A model generated the notes under the pieces. That model was not told the DNA's origin and ran no database searches. It saw only the letters and a list, made by a program, of their open reading frames with translations. A DNA stretch of 38,703 nucleotides from the IMG/VR virus record IMGVR_UViG_2724679538_000007, positions 1 through 38,703 of that record; one strand, written 5' to 3'. The position numbers and the translations under genes were made by a program. Each line of letters starts with the position of its first letter. The first letter of the stretch is position 1. Source of the DNA: a virus (lineage: Duplodnaviria > Heunggongvirae > Uroviricota > Caudoviricetes). Of this stretch, positions 28,437 to 34,991 are shown in pieces.

Positions 28437-29909
28437 ATGGCTACTTGGCAACAAGGAATCAACTCAGGCGGTTTTCTTGCTGGTATCGGTGGGCAAAACT
28501 CAAATGCGCCAAAGGCAAGTGATGTAAGTGAGGCGTTGGCCTATATTCGCCAGAACAACGAAATGGAGCGTTCAGGGCGCAATAACATCGGCCTTCAGGC
28601 ATTGCAGGGACTTGGTAGTGTCGCTCAAACATATCAAGCCGCAAAGCAACAGGAAGCGGATGCTGCATTCCAAAAAGAATATGCGGCAGCCATCCAGTCC
28701 GGTGATCGACAGCAGGTTCGAGATCTGATGACCAAATATCCTGGTCAATTAGAGAAGATTCAGTCTGGTATGAAGTGGGCAGACGAAGACCAGCGCAATT
28801 CTATCGGCACCTTAGCGGCAGGCGCACGCCTTGCGGCCTCGTCTCCAGAAGCAATGCAATCATGGCTGCAAAACAACGCCAAGGAACTGGCGCGCGTCGG
28901 TGTTGACCCTAACAACGTTGCTCAGATGTATCAGCAGAATCCTTCAGGATTTGGTGAGTTTGTTGATCACCTTGGAATGGCTGCTCTTGGTCCGATTGAC
29001 TACTTCAATGTTCAGGACAAGATGGCAGGTCGTGAGATTGACCGAGGCAGGCTGGCAGAGACAATCCGCAGCAATCAGGCTGGCGAGGCACTTCAGGCGA
29101 GAGGGCAGGATATTAGCAGAGCAAATGCGTTAACGTCAGCATATGCACCAACAGCCGCAATGCAGAATTACAATCAGTACGCGCAAATGTTAAAGGCGGA
29201 TCCAGATGGTGCAGCGGCATTTGCGGCAGCGGCGGGAATTAATCCCAATGCTAAGAAATTACTTAAGGTTGAAACCAATCCTGATGGCTCGGTAACTAAG
29301 TATTACACCGATGGCAGCGAGGAAGCCGGAAAACTAAACCAACCTATATCTGGTGATGGCATTAAACCAATTAGTTTGCCACAAGCGCAAAGCATCATAG
29401 ATAAGGCTAATGAGGGTTCCAAGAAGGCGGCAGGATTTGCTTTGCGATTAAAAGATTCAATGGACTCAATGAATCAGCTTAGTAAAAGCATTGACCCTAA
29501 GCGAGTTGCATTAATAAATCGCTCTCTTGGTGATGGGACTATTGCAAATTTAAGCCTATCACCAGCGGAGCAGCAATATATGGTAAATGCGAGAGACGCC
29601 TTGTATGCAATTTTGCGCCCAGAAACAGGTGCAGCAATTACTCTGCCAGAGATGCAGGAGTATTCCAAAATGTACCTGCCTCAGCCTGGTGATTCCAAGG
29701 CTGCTACTGAAACAAAAATGCGAAAAATGCAGGGCCAATATAACTCATTACGTGGTCAGTCTGGTCGCGTTTATGATGCTTTGGTGGTTTCAAGTGCTGC
29801 AAATAGTCAACAACAGAGCAATAGCCAACAACCGACAAATACCCAACAGCAGCAGAGTCAATCCGGATCATATACCTCAAAATCAGGCATTCAATTTACG
29901 GTGGAATGA
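28437..29909 (+). CDS. Ejection protein, P22 gp20-like (490 aa)
   Basis: Synteny and size; AAGGTGG RBS. Confidence 0.75.
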
Positions 29910-31753
29910 TGAAAGTAACTGCAAACGGTAAGACATTTACCTTCCCTGATGGTACGAGCACGGAAGATATTGGCACCGCCATTGATGAGTATTTTGCTGG
30001 TCAGGCTGTTCAGCAACAAACAGTTAATCAGGTCAATAATGAACCAGCACGTGAAGAACCATCATTGATGCAACAAGCTGGCGATTGGCTCACAGGTGGT
30101 CAAAGTGCAGGGCAAATTGCAGAGCAGGCTGGTCGTGGTCTGGTAAACATACCATTTGACGTATTGCAGGGTGGCGCAAGTCTGATTAATGCAATCAGCC
30201 AGGGGCTTGGTGGCCCCAAGGTTTTGGACGATGTCTATCGTCCAGTAGATCGACCAACAGACCCTTATGCGCAAGCTGGAGAAACAATTGGCGGGTATTT
30301 AGTTCCAGGAGTTGGAACGGCAGGAAGCATGGCTATTGGATCACTGGCAGAGGCCGCAAATCAGAAAGGCGATTTCGCACAAAATGCAGCTAAAAATGCC
30401 GGAGTTAACCTTGCCGCTCAGGGTGTTCTTTCCGCAGCAGCAAAGGGAATAGGGCGTGGAATAACGGCTATAAAAGGTGATATTGCGCCAGAAGTGGCGA
30501 AGAAAATTGCCACATCAGAATCGATGGGCGTGACACCAATGACATCTGATGTTATCCCGCCGAAAAATGCTTTCACTCGCGGACTTACTCAGGATGCTGA
30601 GGGGGCTTTGCTCGGGACAGGCTCAAAGCGAGCGGAGCAATATGCAACGCGTAGTAAGCTGGTAAGCAATTATTTTGACCGTTTTGGTGAGTACAACCCT
30701 GATGATGTGGTGAAATCTCTTACCACCACGTTAAGGGGGCGGAAGGATGCCGCTGGCGCTGTTATCAATGACGTCACCAATAAAATGGGTAATGCCGCAG
30801 TTGATACCACAAATACCATGAATGCTCTGAATACAGCGATCGCAAGACAGGAACGGCTTGGGACGTCTGCCAATCAAAGCCTGCTTACATCCTTGCGTAA
30901 CCTACGTGAAGAATTAGCAAACCCTGCAACTGATTTGGATGTTACGTTTGATCTCTTGCGTCAGCACAGAACAGCATTTAGATCTAATGTTCAGGGAGAT
31001 GCTATGGTCTTCCCCAACCAGGCAAAAGCAGCTACCAATATGGTAGAGAATGCAATGTCAAAAGACCTTCGTAACGCAGTTGCTAAAAACCTCGGTGCAT
31101 CAGACGCAGCAAAATACCTTAAAGCAAATTCCGATTATGCAAACGTTTATAATAAGGTGCTTAATAAAAACATTGCCAACAAGCTCAACAAGGCAAGCAG
31201 TGAAGCCAGTCCTGAACTTATAAATACCGTTGTATTAAGCAGAAAACCATCTGACGTGAAACGAATCTGGAGCGCACTGGATGATAAGGGGAAAGATGCT
31301 ATGCGTGCAGCTTACGTCAGCAAAATAGCGGAAAAGGCCGGGGACTCTCCAGCCAAGTTCATCACTGAAGTTAATAAGCTGAAATCTCAGTCAGGCGGTG
31401 AAATTTACAACACTATTTTTTCTGGAAAGCACATGAAAGAGCTTGATGCTCTTCATGAAGTTCTACAGCAAACAGCAAGGTCAGACACCGCAAATGTAGT
31501 AACTCAGACGGGGCAATCGCAAGCCAACAGGATAAGGACGATTGGCGCAACTGCGACCCTTGGCGTATCAATGGGGCTTGAGGCTGGTTTTGGTGCAATG
31601 ATGCGCTTGTATGAGTCCAAAGCAGCAAGGAATGCTCTCTTACGTCTGGCAAACACTAAAACTGGAACGCCAGCTTATGAAAGAGCGCTAAATAATGCTG
31701 CAAATGCGATACGCCCTATACTTTCAAGCCAAATTACAGCAGAACAGCAATAA
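29906..31753 (+). CDS. Ejection protein, P22 gp16-like (615 aa)
   Basis: Synteny and size (P22 gp16 is about 609 aa); start overlaps the gp20 stop. Confidence 0.75.
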
Positions 31754-31767
31754 AAGATAAGATATAA

Positions 31768-32253
31768 CTACCTGATATTACTGCTACTGTTGCATGTTAC
31801 CGTGTTTCCAAATCCTGAATTGCAGTTTGTATATGTGTCAACGCGTGTTGGGTAAGGTTGAGTTATAACAGGCTGGCGCGCTTTTTGCTCGATCGCTTGC
31901 ATTGTGTTTACAGCCTGATAATTCAATAAAGCCTGCTGGAATGCTTGGCTTTGTGCTATTTGTTGGGCTTGTTCTTGGCTTTGTAATTGAACATAAAGAT
32001 TCTGAAGCTCAAGTCTTGCCTGTGCGTCACTTATCTTGCCTTCATCGACACCTTGCCCGAGCATCTTTGCAGCAAGGACATACAGCTTAGGTGTTGGTGC
32101 TGATGCCATGCGTGAGTCGTTCTTCACACTGGCATCAAGGCAATTAGCCATATCGCTAAGCTTTTGATAGCGTTGTTCGCAACTTGCTTGATAGTCACTT
32201 ACTTTTGCGCATCCAACCAGAAGAAGCGGGATAATTAACAGTGATTTTTTCAT
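31768..32253 (-). CDS. Lipoprotein (161 aa), antisense to the late operon; candidate superinfection-exclusion factor
   Basis: Signal peptide plus lipobox MKKSLLIIPLLLVGC; AAGGAG RBS; occupies the P22 sieA/immI position between gene 16 and the tailspike. Confidence 0.7.
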   Translation of the reverse strand: MKKSLLIIPLLLVGCAKVSDYQASCEQRYQKLSDMANCLDASVKNDSRMASAPTPKLYVLAAKMLGQGVDEGKISDAQARLELQNLYVQLQSQEQAQQIAQSQAFQQALLNYQAVNTMQAIEQKARQPVITQPYPTRVDTYTNCNSGFGNTVTCNSSSNIR

Positions 32254-32287
32254 ATAATTAACTCTCCTTAGTTTTTAGCAGGATACC

Positions 32288-32653
32288 ATGAAAAAAGTTA
32301 ACATTGGAAACGTACCAAAGATGCTCGTTCCGCTCTTTGAGAGCGGTACAATTGTGTTTTGTAGAGACTTTCCAGAATGGCAACGCCTGCATCAAAAACT
32401 TGGTGTGGACGTGCATGACTCGGACGCCAACGGAGCGTCTCATACAATGAGTAGCGAGAATGGTGTTTTGCATGTGATAGGCGTGTTCAATGGCAAACTA
32501 TCTACCATTGCCCATGAGTGCGCTCACATGGCATTCGATATCTGCTCAAGGGTAGGTGTTGATGTTGAACCAGGAAGAGCCAACGAGACTTACTGCTACT
32601 TAATGAGCAGGCTTGTTGAGTTCTGCGAGCGACATATCAAAAAGCCGGAGTGA
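32288..32653 (+). CDS. Small HExxH-motif protein (121 aa), possible zinc metallopeptidase-like regulator
   Basis: Motif IAHECAHMAFD (HExxH); ATG with AGGA RBS; diverges from the lipoprotein gene with only 34 bp between start codons. Confidence 0.5.
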   Translation: MKKVNIGNVPKMLVPLFESGTIVFCRDFPEWQRLHQKLGVDVHDSDANGASHTMSSENGVLHVIGVFNGKLSTIAHECAHMAFDICSRVGVDVEPGRANETYCYLMSRLVEFCERHIKKPE

Positions 32654-32666
32654 CCCGGCTTGATTA

Positions 32667-32846
32667 TTACTTTTTGCTGTCTGGAGTTCGCTTATCCAAT
32701 ACCCAGCCATGACCTGGCTTTGTTGTTGGTGGAAGCCTTTCGTTGTCCTTGACGGTTGCAAAATTGTCTTTCTTACCGCCGCGTGGGCCAACTTCTTGGT
32801 ATATTCCGCCGTTTTTTCCAGTGTTTTCACCTGGTTTTTTCGCCAT
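32667..32846 (-). CDS. YjzC-like small protein (59 aa)
   Basis: MAKKPGENTGKNGGIYQEVGPRGG resembles the YjzC-family motif (PGE..NG.Y.E.G..G) from memory; GAGGT RBS; track ORF is longer (32667..32861). Confidence 0.5.
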   Translation of the reverse strand: MAKKPGENTGKNGGIYQEVGPRGGKKDNFATVKDNERLPPTTKPGHGWVLDKRTPDSKK

Positions 32847-33007
32847 GATATACCTCAACATACACCCGTTATTGGGCGATTAAATATTGATCTCATTTTA
32901 TAAGTAGTCAATATGGTCTTGGTAATGTCAAAAATTAACCAATCGTCATCTGGGGTATCCGTAAAAACTCTTCAGTACATAACTACTGACAGATAACCAA
33001 CGCAAAG

Positions 33008-33032
33008 ACCCAGCTTCGGCTGGGTTTTTTTA
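33008..33032 (+). terminator. Hairpin plus T-tract upstream of the tailspike gene
   Basis: ACCCAGC-ttcg-GCTGGGT followed by TTTTTTTAT. Confidence 0.5.
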
Positions 33033-33089
33033 TGCCCAAAATTCACCGTAGCCATGCTGCGGCGATTCCTTGTATCTGGAGCAAATTAA

Positions 33090-34991
33090 ATGACAGATTC
33101 AATAAATGCCAATGTTGTAGTGAGTATGCCTTCGCAACTCTTCACTATGGCTCGTTCTTTTAAAGCCGTAGCCAATGGCAAAATTTATATCGGGAAAATT
33201 GACACTGATCCGGTAAATCCTGAAAACCGGATTCAGGTTTATGTAGAGAACGAAGACGGCTCTCACGTTCCTGTTTCTCAACCAATCATCATTAACGCTG
33301 CTGGTTATCCGGTATATAACGGACAGATTGCTAAATTCGTAACTGTGCAAGGCCATTCCATGGCTGTTTATGATGCGTATGGTGCACAGCAATTCTATTT
33401 TCCTAATGTGCTGAAGTATGACCCTGACCAGTTCAAACCTGAACTACAAGGTGCCAATGGAGCAAGCTTAATTGGTACTAATCATCGCGGCACCTTAAAG
33501 GCTGACTTAGATCGCATTGACAATAGAACGTCGGGACAGTCCATCGCAGATTTAAAGTCTAATACTGGTGATATTGTTATCGACTCCTCTGTTACGGACG
33601 CAATCACCCCAATTTCAGGCAGCGAGATATCTGGGGCGAGTAACGGGGAACATGTCACCGCTAAGGGTACTGTCGGGATTACTATAAATGATAGCAGGGT
33701 TAAGGTTGATAACTTGCTAATGCGCGGCGACGGCACTGTAGACTACACGGACACCTCACCGACATATAATGCCATTATCTATGGCTCGGACGTTGTTGTG
33801 TCCCGTTCATACGCTAAAGACACGACAATGGGGTACGACTTGGCCGCCGGTGCTTCCAACGTTAAGCTAATTGGTAATACAAGTGAAAATATGACGTCGC
33901 ACCCCGCCGTTGGTACACCACCTGTTTCAGCCGGTGGCTATGGTGTGCTTCTGGGAACTAACGAGGACGTATTAATCCTGGGCCATTCTGCTAAGGGCAC
34001 AAACCCTGCTGACCGCCACGCAGTATACCTATCAAATACGAACAACACTGACCAGAACAAAGATGTTCGGGTAATCGGCTTACGTGCGGATTACAGCGCA
34101 GGTCCATCCGCGGGGGATAAGCCGGAGCGGTCATCACCTATGATATTCGCCCGCGGCAACAACGGCGTCATTATCAGTTCTTCCCAACTCCGTGGCGGCG
34201 GAGCCGGTATAAATTTCACAGATGAGCGCGTAGGATACAGTTCAATAACCTTGAGTGATTTGCAATTACTGGATATTCGTAAGAATACCGCGGATGAGTC
34301 ATGGGGTATCGCACTCAACCACGCGTCTGCTAACGCTTCCAATGTCAACACCCAGAATATTATTAACGGCGTTAATATAGTAATGGCGCCCGGGAGCACA
34401 TCTGCCGACAGGTCGAATCAGTACCCTATACACCTTAATTCACAGCGGTATGTAAATATTGATAATGCCATCATAGCATCGTCGGGGTTGGCGTACGGAA
34501 TACGCCTGATAGCTACAAGTTACTGTAATATCAGTAATGTAGTAGGGTTTACTAACGATGGGACATCTGCCGCGGCGGCCGTGGCGTTCTTCCAGTTTCA
34601 GAACGGAAGCAGTAATATTAAATTAAGCAATATAAACGTCCAATCAAGAAATACAATGTTCGCAGGGCTGGATAATGTAACCGACTTGCAAGTGGATTGG
34701 GTGCGTAAAGTTCGCATTAACGTTGTATCTGGAGCGGCTACAGTATCAGGGGATATATGGGAACTAGTTAGCGGCGTAACCGTCACTGGGGCGAGTATAG
34801 CTGTTCAACTTAAGGGCCATGTAACACAAACCGCTGCTGATGGCGCTATCGTAAGGCCGGCTAGTGCTAATCAATTTATTGTTGCTGGCACTGACTCTAA
34901 AAGGATTACAATTTCTGTATATAACGTTAATGGCACTGGTGTTGTGCCAAACACTGGTACTTATTCGTTCGATATTGTGCTATATAAATAG
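33090..34991 (+). CDS. Tailspike protein (P22 gp9-like N-terminal head-binding domain, divergent receptor-binding domain; 633 aa)
   Basis: N-terminal about 120 aa parallel P22 tailspike (ANVVVS ... [22 protein letters not shown] ... [12 protein letters not shown] ... NVLKYDPDQ); the rest is unrelated by eye and Gly/Asn/Ser-rich, consistent with a beta-helix. Confidence 0.88.

What the first reader, a model, noticed from the sequence alone, without database searches (positions are those of the whole stretch)
32288..32653. Divergently transcribed HExxH mini-protein facing the lipoprotein gene
A 121-aa ORF with a credible RBS carries an HExxH zinc-binding signature (IAHECAHMAFD) of the kind seen in ImmA/IrrE-type and SprT-type metallopeptidases. 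It starts only 34 bp from the lipoprotein start codon on the other strand, so each gene's promoter must lie inside or very close to the other, implying coupled or mutually exclusive expression. In the immI-equivalent region this could be a protease-type antirepressor or the switch component of a two-gene exclusion module. This is speculative; the HExxH could be coincidental.
Basis: inference. Interest (0 to 1): 0.62.

Follow-up and report, generated by a model that had tools for sequence, protein, structure and literature searches.

The report
Conserved phage mini zinc-protease gene hkcC
The ORF is a real, conserved phage gene (hkcC of phages P22 and HK620, function unknown) that most likely encodes a very small zinc protease. 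It is not tied to the neighbouring lipoprotein gene; its constant partner is a small gene on its other side.

Summary
A 121-aa ORF lies at 32288-32653 (+), with HECAH at residues 76-80, 34 bp from the lipoprotein start codon. It is the known gene hkcC (HK620, P22), listed as 'unknown function'.

The motif is not coincidental. H76, E77 and E100 are invariant and H80 nearly so in 102 distant homologues. 27 of 30 variable sites are at third codon positions. A confident model (pLDDT 91) has a minimal gluzincin layout, but matches to solved zincins are weak and no Pfam family fits.

The interpretation mostly fails.
- The window has no mnt, arc, ant or sieA.
- The lipoprotein is one of 12 unrelated, mostly envelope-type cargo genes fused behind the same ribosome-binding site in otherwise identical loci.
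- There is no ImmA/IrrE or SprT membership.

The conserved partner is the convergent 59-aa YjzC-like gene orf59a (32667-32846, -). The pair travels together into other prophage types. hkcC always points with lytic operons and has no promoter of its own that I could find; orf59a has its own conserved promoter.

My best reading is a lytic-phase mini-metalloprotease paired with a prophage-phase small protein. The substrate is unknown. Interest is modest.

The parts
32288..32653 (+). hkcC homologue, 121 aa, predicted minimal gluzincin-type metallopeptidase
   Evidence: ORF. 99.2% aa identity to HK620 HkcC and to the same ORF in P22. phrog_1365 at E=1.7e-39. Purifying selection. AF2 pLDDT 91.
32513..32527 (+). 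HExxH codons (H76 E77 C78 A79 H80) in predicted helix 71-89
   Evidence: H76 and E77 are invariant and H80 at least 90% conserved in 102 distant homologues. Helix assignment.
32582..32587 (+). N99-E100, candidate third zinc ligand at the start of predicted helix 100-115, 20 residues after H80
   Evidence: E100 is invariant in A4. N99 and E100 are invariant in A3. Helix.
32254..32287 (.). 34-bp spacer. It carries the hkcC RBS (AGGA, 32280-32283, + strand) and the cargo gene's Shine-Dalgarno (AAGGAG on the - strand, 32264-32269).
   Evidence: Nearly invariant across 83 loci apart from a 2-nt variable spot at 32276-32277. Shared SD-start junction.
32288..32318 (-). Putative PsieA-equivalent promoter for the divergent cargo gene, inside hkcC codons 1-10
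   Evidence: By homology to the P22 annotation (PsieA = P22 13861-13891 = hkcC nt 1-31). The sequence is conserved. It was not picked up by the consensus scan, so it is weak or non-canonical.
31768..32253 (-). Lipoprotein cargo gene (161 aa, lipobox LLVGC, phrog_6067), one of 12 alternative cargo families at this position
32642..32661 (.). Bidirectional terminator-like hairpin that overlaps the hkcC stop codon and encodes its C-terminal K-P-E-stop
   Evidence: Annotated as the bidirectional terminator tORF59A in HK620. An identical hairpin occurs in a Xenorhabdus prophage.
32667..32846 (-). orf59a/hkcD homologue, 59 aa from the conserved Met (the ORF could extend to 32861). YjzC-family small beta protein and the conserved convergent partner of hkcC.
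   Evidence: YjzC, E=0.0017; phrog_3202.
32883..32911 (-). Sigma-70 promoter-like site (TTGACT-17-AATATT) just upstream of orf59a
   Evidence: The same hexamers sit upstream of the orf59a homologue in Xenorhabdus, and a similar site in Klebsiella.
32847..33089 (.). Remnants of the P22 immI region after deletion of mnt-arc-ant
   Evidence: blastn of P22 immI DNA matches only its two ends. HK620 annotates the tMNT and tANT remnants.

Best explanation
The ORF is the hkcC gene of P22-like phages. It is a real, translated gene for a roughly 120-aa stand-alone protein.

Predicted fold (inferred from the model): two short strands, a backing helix, a beta-hairpin, an active-site helix carrying HExxH, and a following helix that starts with an invariant Asn-Glu 20 residues after the second His. 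That is the minimal scaffold of a gluzincin zinc metallopeptidase.

Relation to neighbours (shown):
- It is not functionally tied to the lipoprotein. The lipoprotein is one of a dozen interchangeable, mostly envelope-targeted cargo genes.
- All of these cargo genes are fused to the same ribosome-binding site and start codon, and are presumably driven by the PsieA-type promoter that lies inside hkcC's first codons.
- Its evolutionarily constant partner is the convergent orf59a gene, which encodes a YjzC-family 59-aa beta protein. The pair shares a bidirectional terminator and moves as a unit between unrelated positions in different prophage types.

Expression and function (inferred):
- hkcC has no promoter of its own that I could find and always points with the surrounding lytic operon, in two contexts directly behind a terminator. 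It is therefore probably made only from antiterminated lytic (here late) transcripts.
- orf59a has its own promoter, or rides on the mnt transcript in P22, and is probably made in the lysogen.
- The most likely working model is a lytic-phase mini-protease that cleaves one specific target. The adjacent Orf59a protein, or whatever it acts on, is the first candidate. The substrate is not known.
For: Gene identity:
- 95-97% nt and 99.2% aa identity to HK620 hkcC and to P22.
- The literature lists hkcC and 59a as 'two genes of unknown function' (PMC2629481; PMC4837284).

Real coding gene:
- 27 of 30 variable sites are at codon position 3.
- 278 homologues and 552 clusters at 50% identity, nearly all 110-140 aa.

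Metal site:
- H76, E77 and E100 invariant, H80 at least 90% conserved.

Fold:
- pLDDT 91 with the topology described.
- A profile search of the PDB returns zinc metallopeptidases as 9 of its 10 hits (the 10th is a viral RNA polymerase), with HExxH aligned in the printed alignments (myroilysin E=0.015, astacins, peptidyl-Lys endopeptidase).
- BFVD fold matches at E down to 4.5e-10 to many uncharacterised phage proteins, a few of them named SprT-like, Metalloprotease or IrrE.

Independence from the lipoprotein:
- 12 cargo families at the same junction.
- The lipoprotein occurs without hkcC.

Pairing with orf59a:
- A convergent orf59a homologue lies 11-25 nt downstream in P22-like, Klebsiella, Xenorhabdus, Proteus, Serratia and Pasteurellaceae prophages, with HkcC down to 40% identity.
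- 52 of 52 isolated P22-like phages carry both genes.
- The association follows a clade in the tree.

Expression logic:
- No + strand promoter was found upstream.
- A terminator lies directly upstream of hkcC in L088 and L090.
- The orf59a promoter is conserved.
- The region lies 'inside the late operon' (PMC8022706).
Against: - No Pfam, NCBIfam or PADLOC family matches.
- Zinc binding and proteolysis are untested.
- Expression timing is inferred from gene order and consensus scans only. [quoted passage not shown]
- The orf129-type paralogues lack orf59a, and orf59a homologues occur without hkcC, so the pair is not obligatory.
- A complex prediction could not be run.
Confidence: 0.5

Rival explanations
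1. HkcC is an ImmA/IrrE- or SprT-type protease acting as an antirepressor, or as the switch of a two-gene exclusion module with the lipoprotein in the immI-equivalent region.
For: - The motif is a real zincin motif.
- In several phages the hkcC-orf59a pair sits beside mnt-type (RHH) and ant-type genes.
- The cargo promoter lies in hkcC's 5' end.
Against: - The window lacks mnt, arc, ant and sieA, yet hkcC is intact and under purifying selection.
- There are 12 unrelated cargo partners.
- No Peptidase_M78 or SprT Pfam match.
- No third His and no adjacent HTH repressor.
- Fold relatives occur in strictly lytic phages such as N4-like phCDa.
Confidence: 0.06
2. HkcC is an anti-defence, or host-takeover, protease made during lytic growth. 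It cleaves a host immunity protein, and Orf59a is an unrelated neighbouring moron.
For: - The family is widespread in temperate and lytic phages.
- It always sits in lytic operons at typical accessory-gene spots: between lysis genes and terminase, inside tail clusters, and after gene 16.
- The paralogue clade lacks orf59a.
Against: - The tight convergent linkage with orf59a across very different genomes is then unexplained.
- No target is known.
- No hit in the PADLOC defence-protein models (that library does not cover anti-defence proteins) or in the literature.
Confidence: 0.2
3. hkcC-orf59a is a toxin-antidote-like or abortive-infection pair. HkcC is a harmful protease held in check by prophage-expressed Orf59a.
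For: - In the hkcC clade the protease gene almost never occurs without orf59a, whereas orf59a occurs alone, and one locus has a decayed hkcC remnant next to an intact orf59a.
- The pair is convergent with a shared terminator.
- Orf59a is the better conserved of the two.
Against: - orf129-type paralogues exist without any orf59a.
- No hit in PADLOC.
- Separate, convergent transcription is unusual for protein-protein toxin-antitoxin pairs (own knowledge).
- There are no toxicity data.
Confidence: 0.14
4. The ORF is conserved as DNA, serving as a promoter for the cargo gene and as a homologous flank for cassette exchange, and its protein is irrelevant. Alternatively, the HExxH site has a non-proteolytic, purely structural metal role.
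For: - 98-100% nt identity next to hypervariable flanks.
- The promoter is annotated inside the ORF.
Against: - The third-position bias of substitutions.
- Homologues at 25-45% identity in unrelated genomic contexts keep H, E, H and E.
- The catalytic Glu77 is invariant, which a purely structural metal site would not require (own knowledge of zincin mechanism).
Confidence: 0.05

Closest known systems
HkcC of coliphage HK620 (AAK28904.1) and hkcC of Salmonella phage P22; PHROG family phrog_1365
   Same: Same gene: 99.2% aa identity, the same position between gene 16 and gene 9, and the same downstream terminator and orf59a/hkcD.
   Different: Nothing substantive differs. The divergent neighbour here is a lipoprotein, instead of sieA (P22) or hkcB (HK620). 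The family has no assigned function, and several P22 records do not annotate the ORF at all.
Gluzincin metallopeptidases, in particular minimal ones (minigluzincins such as proabylysin and projannalysin; also thermolysin M4 and M1 enzymes, which carry HExxH plus an 'NE' glutamate about 19-20 residues later). These comparisons are from my own knowledge.
   Same: HExxH on a helix. An invariant Glu preceded by Asn 20 residues after the second His, at the start of the next helix. A small beta-sheet plus backing helix in front. Weak profile hits go almost only to zinc metallopeptidases (9 of 10).
   Different: No significant sequence or structure match to any solved zincin. There is no C-terminal subdomain beyond the glutamate helix. 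Activity is untested.
ImmA/IrrE (Peptidase_M78) anti-repressor proteases
   Different: No Pfam match. About half the size. Not in an operon with an HTH repressor. Present where no immunity genes remain and, by fold, in lytic phages.
SprT-like / Wss1 / Spartan proteases (PF10263)
   Same: Small HExxH domain. Two relatives give sub-threshold SprT-like Pfam hits (E=1e-4 and 0.014), and a few BFVD fold neighbours carry that name.
   Different: The SprT third ligand is a His shortly after HExxH (own knowledge). Here there is no such His and the conserved ligand is Glu100. The query has no hit to the family.
P22 PsieA-sieA superinfection-exclusion cassette
   Same: The lipoprotein gene occupies the sieA slot, behind the same conserved 5' region and in the same orientation. 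The promoter region is shared with hkcC's 5' end (PMC10883804).
   Different: The cargo is an unrelated lipoprotein, not the three-TM inner-membrane SieA. Its exclusion activity is untested.

Membership tests
HkcC / phrog_1365 | Full-length sequence match to the family profile and to the founding member | tested here: met
   phrog_1365 E=1.7e-39 over residues 1-121. 99.2% identity to HK620 HkcC.
Zincin/gluzincin metallopeptidase superfamily | HExxH motif on an alpha-helix, conserved across the family | tested here: met
   H76 and E77 invariant, H80 at least 90% conserved in 102 homologues. Helix 71-89 in a pLDDT-91 model.
Zincin/gluzincin metallopeptidase superfamily | Third zinc ligand Glu on a following 'glutamate helix' | tested here: met
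   E100 is invariant. It lies at the start of helix 100-115, 20 residues after H80. The side-chain geometry of the model could not be inspected.
Zincin/gluzincin metallopeptidase superfamily | Significant structural similarity to solved zincin catalytic domains | tested here: inconclusive
Zincin/gluzincin metallopeptidase superfamily | Zinc binding and peptide-bond hydrolysis | not testable with these tools
   Needs biochemistry.
ImmA/IrrE (Peptidase_M78) | Match to PF06114 or related models | tested here: not met
   No hit at E<=1 for the query. 0 of 102 homologues hit at E<=0.01.
ImmA/IrrE (Peptidase_M78) | Encoded next to, and usually co-transcribed with, its cognate HTH repressor substrate | tested here: not met
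   The neighbours are a lipoprotein cargo gene and the YjzC-like orf59a. No mnt, arc, ant or HTH gene is present in the region. The neighbours vary between loci.
SprT-like (PF10263) | Pfam match and a third His ligand soon after HExxH | tested here: not met
   No hit for the query. 1 of 102 homologues hits at E=1e-4. The sequence after H80 is MAFDICSRVGV, with no His.
Two-gene exclusion module with the lipoprotein | Consistent co-occurrence of the two genes | tested here: not met
   18 of 82 classified loci (83 examined; one cargo start unresolved) have the lipoprotein, and the rest have 11 other cargo families. The lipoprotein occurs without hkcC in phages Gally and Brookers.
hkcC-orf59a convergent pair (proposed here) | Consistent adjacency and orientation across divergent genomes | tested here: met
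   The pair is present in all members of the hkcC clade examined except one (Moraxella L104), in at least three kinds of genomic site. The numbers of isolated-phage records with a >=95%-identical copy of each gene are the same, 52 and 52. It is not obligatory for orf59a or for the orf129-type paralogues.
Known anti-phage defence systems (PADLOC) | Match to any defence-protein model | tested here: not met
   No hits for HkcC, the lipoprotein or Orf59a at E<=1.

The most novel reading that the evidence does not exclude
hkcC-orf59a is a previously unrecognised, mobile two-gene phage module whose two genes are expressed in opposite life-cycle phases. A YjzC-like mini beta-protein is made by the prophage. 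A minimal zinc protease is made only from antiterminated lytic transcripts and removes or antagonises that protein (or the reverse: the small protein restrains the protease). This would amount to a built-in on/off device for a prophage-conferred function. It would also assign a role to two of the last function-less genes of phage P22.
Probability: 0.2. Interest if true: 0.7.

Novelty: new member of a known kind. Interest (0 to 1): 0.4.

Why it matters
- P22 and HK620 are model phages, yet hkcC and orf59a have been carried as 'unknown' since 2001, and hkcC is missing from several P22 annotations.
- An invariant catalytic-type metal site, plus a partner gene that travels with hkcC, turns these into directly testable genes. 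The obvious first experiments are an E77A mutant, deletions and co-expression.
- The family is large (552 clusters at 50% identity) and has no Pfam model, so defining it would annotate many phage and prophage proteins.
- Separately, the fixed junction behind which a dozen envelope cargo genes are swapped is a compact natural hotspot for candidate superinfection-exclusion genes.

Tried and rejected
- Family libraries gave nothing usable for HkcC: Pfam, NCBIfam and PADLOC, and Pfam on 102 homologues and on 10 longer relatives. The longer relatives only add charged, low-complexity tails, so there is no informative domain fusion.
- Structure libraries: the afdb50 library was not available, and Foldseek against the PDB gave only noise.
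The proposed interaction is therefore untested.
- Locus searches: the search for related loci with the most diverse alignment failed for lack of a conserved block, and a scan with the Klebsiella-type protein found nothing in viral contigs.
- Literature: searches for hkcC, orf59a, orf129, YjzC and HExxH/anti-defence found no functional data. Hofer et al. 1995, which defined PsieA, is not held.
- Rfam on 31000-33500 gave only sub-threshold hits.
- The 139-aa ORF opposite the lipoprotein in phage Gally is not an HkcC relative.
- I considered a virion or ejection-protein role because of the position after gene 16. I rejected it because the P22 virion protein set is well defined and does not include HkcC (own knowledge).

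Full report
**What is there**

The window is a P22-like (Lederbergvirus) phage or prophage. The finding lies between the ejection-protein gene 16 (29906-31753, +) and the tailspike gene 9 (33090-34991, +). This is the slot that holds sieA and the immI genes in P22.

The ORF is exactly as described: 32288-32653 (+), 121 aa, with IAHECAHMAFD at residues 74-84. AGGA lies 4 nt before the ATG. A 34-bp spacer separates it from the divergent 161-aa lipoprotein ORF (31768-32253, -).

**Identity**

- The DNA from 32260 to about 33100 is 95% identical to HK620, and to about 32940 it is 97% identical to P22.
- In HK620 the ORF is annotated hkcC, 'unknown'.
- In P22-pbi it is not annotated at all. There the sieA promoter is annotated on what are the first 31 nt of the ORF.
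- The protein is 99.2% identical in 40-odd P22-like phages. It matches phrog_1365, 'unknown function', at E=1.7e-39.
[quoted passage not shown] A 2016 annotation repeats 'Unknown' (PMC4837284).
- I found no functional study.
- The 617-bp hkcC-orf59a segment occurs in 132 of 5426 complete E. coli genomes, annotated as two hypothetical proteins.

**Is the gene real, and is the motif meaningful?**

A HExxH in a 121-aa ORF of this composition is expected about 0.004 times. The whole window has 3 such motifs in six frames against 2.4 expected. The motif alone therefore proves little. Conservation is what counts.

- Among 83 copies (38 nucleotide alleles), 27 of 30 variable sites are third codon positions, and 25 variable codons are synonymous against 4 that change the amino acid. 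The reading frame is under purifying selection.
- Sensitive searches find 278 homologues and 552 clusters at 50% identity. Nearly all are stand-alone proteins of 110-140 aa.
- In an alignment of 102 members that are 23-44% identical to the query, the only invariant residues are G49, H76, E77 and E100, with H80 at least 90% conserved.
- In the closer set, N99-E100 is invariant.
- Longer relatives only add charged, low-complexity tails and keep HExxH...(N/S/R)E.

**Fold**

An AlphaFold2 model built on 76 sequences is confident (pLDDT 91, pTM 0.85). Its elements are strands 11-13 and 21-25, helix 28-37, hairpin 49-56/59-66, helix 71-89 carrying HExxH, and helix 100-115 starting at E100.

From my own knowledge of the families, this is the order of elements in the minimal gluzincin scaffold: sheet, backing helix, active-site helix, glutamate helix. 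The H-to-E spacing of 20 with a preceding Asn recalls the 'NE' of thermolysin-type and M1 enzymes.

Direct comparison is weak, however.

- Foldseek against the PDB is noise.
- A family profile against PDB sequences returns zinc metallopeptidases as 9 of its 10 hits, the last being a viral RNA polymerase. In the alignments that were printed the motif is aligned, but the best E-value is only 0.015.
- No Pfam, NCBIfam or PADLOC model matches. Only 1 of 102 homologues touches SprT-like.
- Against predicted viral structures there are 26 matches at E<=0.001. Most are uncharacterised phage proteins, including proteins of lytic phages; a few are labelled SprT-like, Metalloprotease or IrrE.

I conclude that this is an unclassified small family within the zincin/gluzincin kind. 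It is not a member of M78 (ImmA/IrrE) or of SprT.

**The lipoprotein is not its partner**

I examined 80 IMG/VR loci with 98-100% identical hkcC, plus P22, HK620 and the window. In these, the divergent gene starts at the same place but belongs to 12 unrelated families (one of the 83 loci could not be classified):

- the lipoprotein (18 loci);
- P22 SieA (13);
- a 129-aa secreted protein (12);
- HkcB-type (9);
- several small membrane proteins and others.

Eleven of the 12 families have an N-terminal hydrophobic segment.

In 64 of the 82 classified loci the conserved DNA runs up to a shared AAGGAGGTTGGT-GTG ribosome-binding site and start codon, or a one-base or duplicated variant of it. The lipoprotein class diverges just after AAGGAG. 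The lipoprotein also occurs without hkcC, in phage Gally and in Proteus phage Brookers, where it follows an Arc/Mnt-type gene.

So hkcC's 5' end plus the 34-bp spacer is a constant expression platform for swappable cargo. The P22 annotation places PsieA inside it. In P22, sieA with 85 bp of upstream DNA confers full exclusion (PMC10883804).

It does not support a specific two-gene module with the lipoprotein. My consensus scan did not find this promoter, so it is non-canonical and remains 'putative'.

**No immI here**

tblastn with P22 Mnt, Arc, Ant and SieA finds nothing in the window. P22 immI DNA matches only at its two ends (32847-32975 and 32970-33089), which is a clean deletion of mnt-arc-ant. 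HK620 shows the same remnants. hkcC is nevertheless intact and under selection, so an immI-switch or antirepressor role is very unlikely.

**The real partner**

Immediately downstream, and convergent, lies orf59a/hkcD (32667-32846 -, 59 aa from the conserved Met). It is a YjzC-family protein (Pfam E=0.0017, phrog_3202; UniRef names). Its predicted structure is a small three-stranded beta domain (pLDDT 87).

The two genes share a hairpin (32642-32661) that overlaps hkcC's stop codon and encodes its conserved C-terminal K-P-E. HK620 annotates this hairpin as a bidirectional terminator.

The same arrangement, with the two genes 11-25 nt apart, recurs where HkcC is only 40-65% identical to the window protein:

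- in siphovirus-type prophages of Klebsiella, Xenorhabdus, Proteus and others, inserted between the tail chaperone genes and the tape-measure gene;
- in a Pasteurellaceae prophage, after the replication genes;
- in a Serratia prophage;
- in Proteus/Providencia-type P22-like phages, next to an mnt-like gene.

In the isolated-phage collection, 52 records carry each gene at 95% identity or more. On a tree of HkcC sequences the association marks one clade. The exceptions are one locus in that clade without orf59a (Moraxella) and one pair in the other clade.

The other clade (orf129 of phages L and ST64T, gene 70 of epsilon34) sits between the lysis genes and dec or terminase, and has no orf59a. 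Conversely, orf59a homologues occur alone in other prophages, once next to a decayed hkcC fragment. The link is therefore strong but not obligatory.

**Expression logic (inference)**

- hkcC is always on the strand of the surrounding lytic operon. Here that is gene 16 to gene 9, a region described as 'inside the late operon' (PMC8022706).
- No + strand promoter is detectable upstream. The only DNA conserved upstream of hkcC is the 34-bp spacer, and the sequence beyond it differs between loci.
- In the Klebsiella and Pasteurellaceae loci a terminator sits 20-25 nt upstream of the start codon.
- orf59a has a sigma-70-like site (TTGACT-17-AATATT, 32911-32883) that is conserved in Xenorhabdus and similar in Klebsiella. 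In P22 it also lies on the mnt transcript.

The simplest reading is that hkcC is expressed only from antiterminated lytic transcripts, which then run antisense through the cargo gene upstream and through orf59a downstream. The cargo gene and orf59a would be prophage-expressed.

**Mechanism and confidence**

- I am confident (about 0.85) that this is a real protein with a functional zincin-type metal site.
- I am moderately confident (about 0.5) that it is a lytic-phase enzyme functionally linked to orf59a.
- What it cuts is unknown. The candidates are Orf59a itself, a host defence or other host factor, or an arrangement in which Orf59a restrains the protease.
- I could not run a complex prediction.

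**Verdict**

This is a known gene of unknown function, now placed as a new small family of a known enzyme kind. Interest is modest. The conserved hkcC-orf59a pair and the cargo-swap junction are the points worth following up.

Noticed in passing
window 31768-32287, and loci L008-L087: A fixed cassette junction. 12 unrelated cargo genes, 11 of them with an N-terminal signal or TM segment, are fused behind the same AAGGAGGTTGGT-GTG start region next to 98-100% identical hkcC. This looks like a natural hotspot for candidate superinfection-exclusion or lysogenic-conversion genes in P22-like prophages. The lipoprotein class diverges slightly earlier, within the Shine-Dalgarno sequence.
   Followed up: yes
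window 32276-32277: Within the otherwise invariant 34-bp spacer, two adjacent bases vary freely between loci (TA, GC, GT, TC, GA, AC and others). Unexplained. They could tune the cargo gene's 5' UTR or promoter.
   Followed up: no
window 32642-32661; L091 5352-5371: The terminator hairpin AAGCCGGAGTGACCCGGCTT contains the last codons and the stop codon of hkcC (K-P-E-stop). It is identical in a Xenorhabdus siphovirus-type prophage whose HkcC is only 63% identical. The conserved 'KKPE' C-terminus may therefore be constrained by the RNA structure rather than by the protein.
   Followed up: partly
window 32667-32861 (-): orf59a is a YjzC-family mini-protein, predicted as a three-stranded beta domain. 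Relatives occur in Gram-positive phages (Brochothrix NF5, Clostridium phiCT9441A, Streptococcus Clyde) and alone in other proteobacterial prophages. It is better conserved than HkcC across the pairs, for example 66% against 40% in Serratia.
   Followed up: partly
window 32847-33089: Clean deletion scar of the P22-type mnt-arc-ant immunity region. Only the two ends remain, as in HK620. Sub-threshold Rfam hits here (istR, STnc370) are probably terminator hairpins.
   Followed up: partly
L005 3001-3390 (phage L orf129); phages epsilon34, ST64T and ST104; mEp044 (L006): A paralogous HkcC clade (36-40% identity) sits in the late operon between the lysis genes and dec or terminase, without orf59a. 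Some P22-like phages (ST160, SE1, Phi75, UAB_Phi20) show two matching places and may carry both paralogues.
   Followed up: partly
window 31768-32253 (-); L004 2501-2977: The lipoprotein (lipobox LLVGC, Gln-rich central part, Cys-containing C-terminus) has 55% identical relatives in Proteus phage Brookers and Salmonella phage MS2 LVA. In Brookers it follows an Arc/Mnt-type gene on the same strand, consistent with prophage expression. Its function is untested.
   Followed up: partly
L145/L146 3218-3379 (-): A 54-aa fragment matching the HkcC profile lies convergent to an intact orf59a homologue in a metagenomic prophage. This looks like hkcC decay with the partner gene retained.
   Followed up: no
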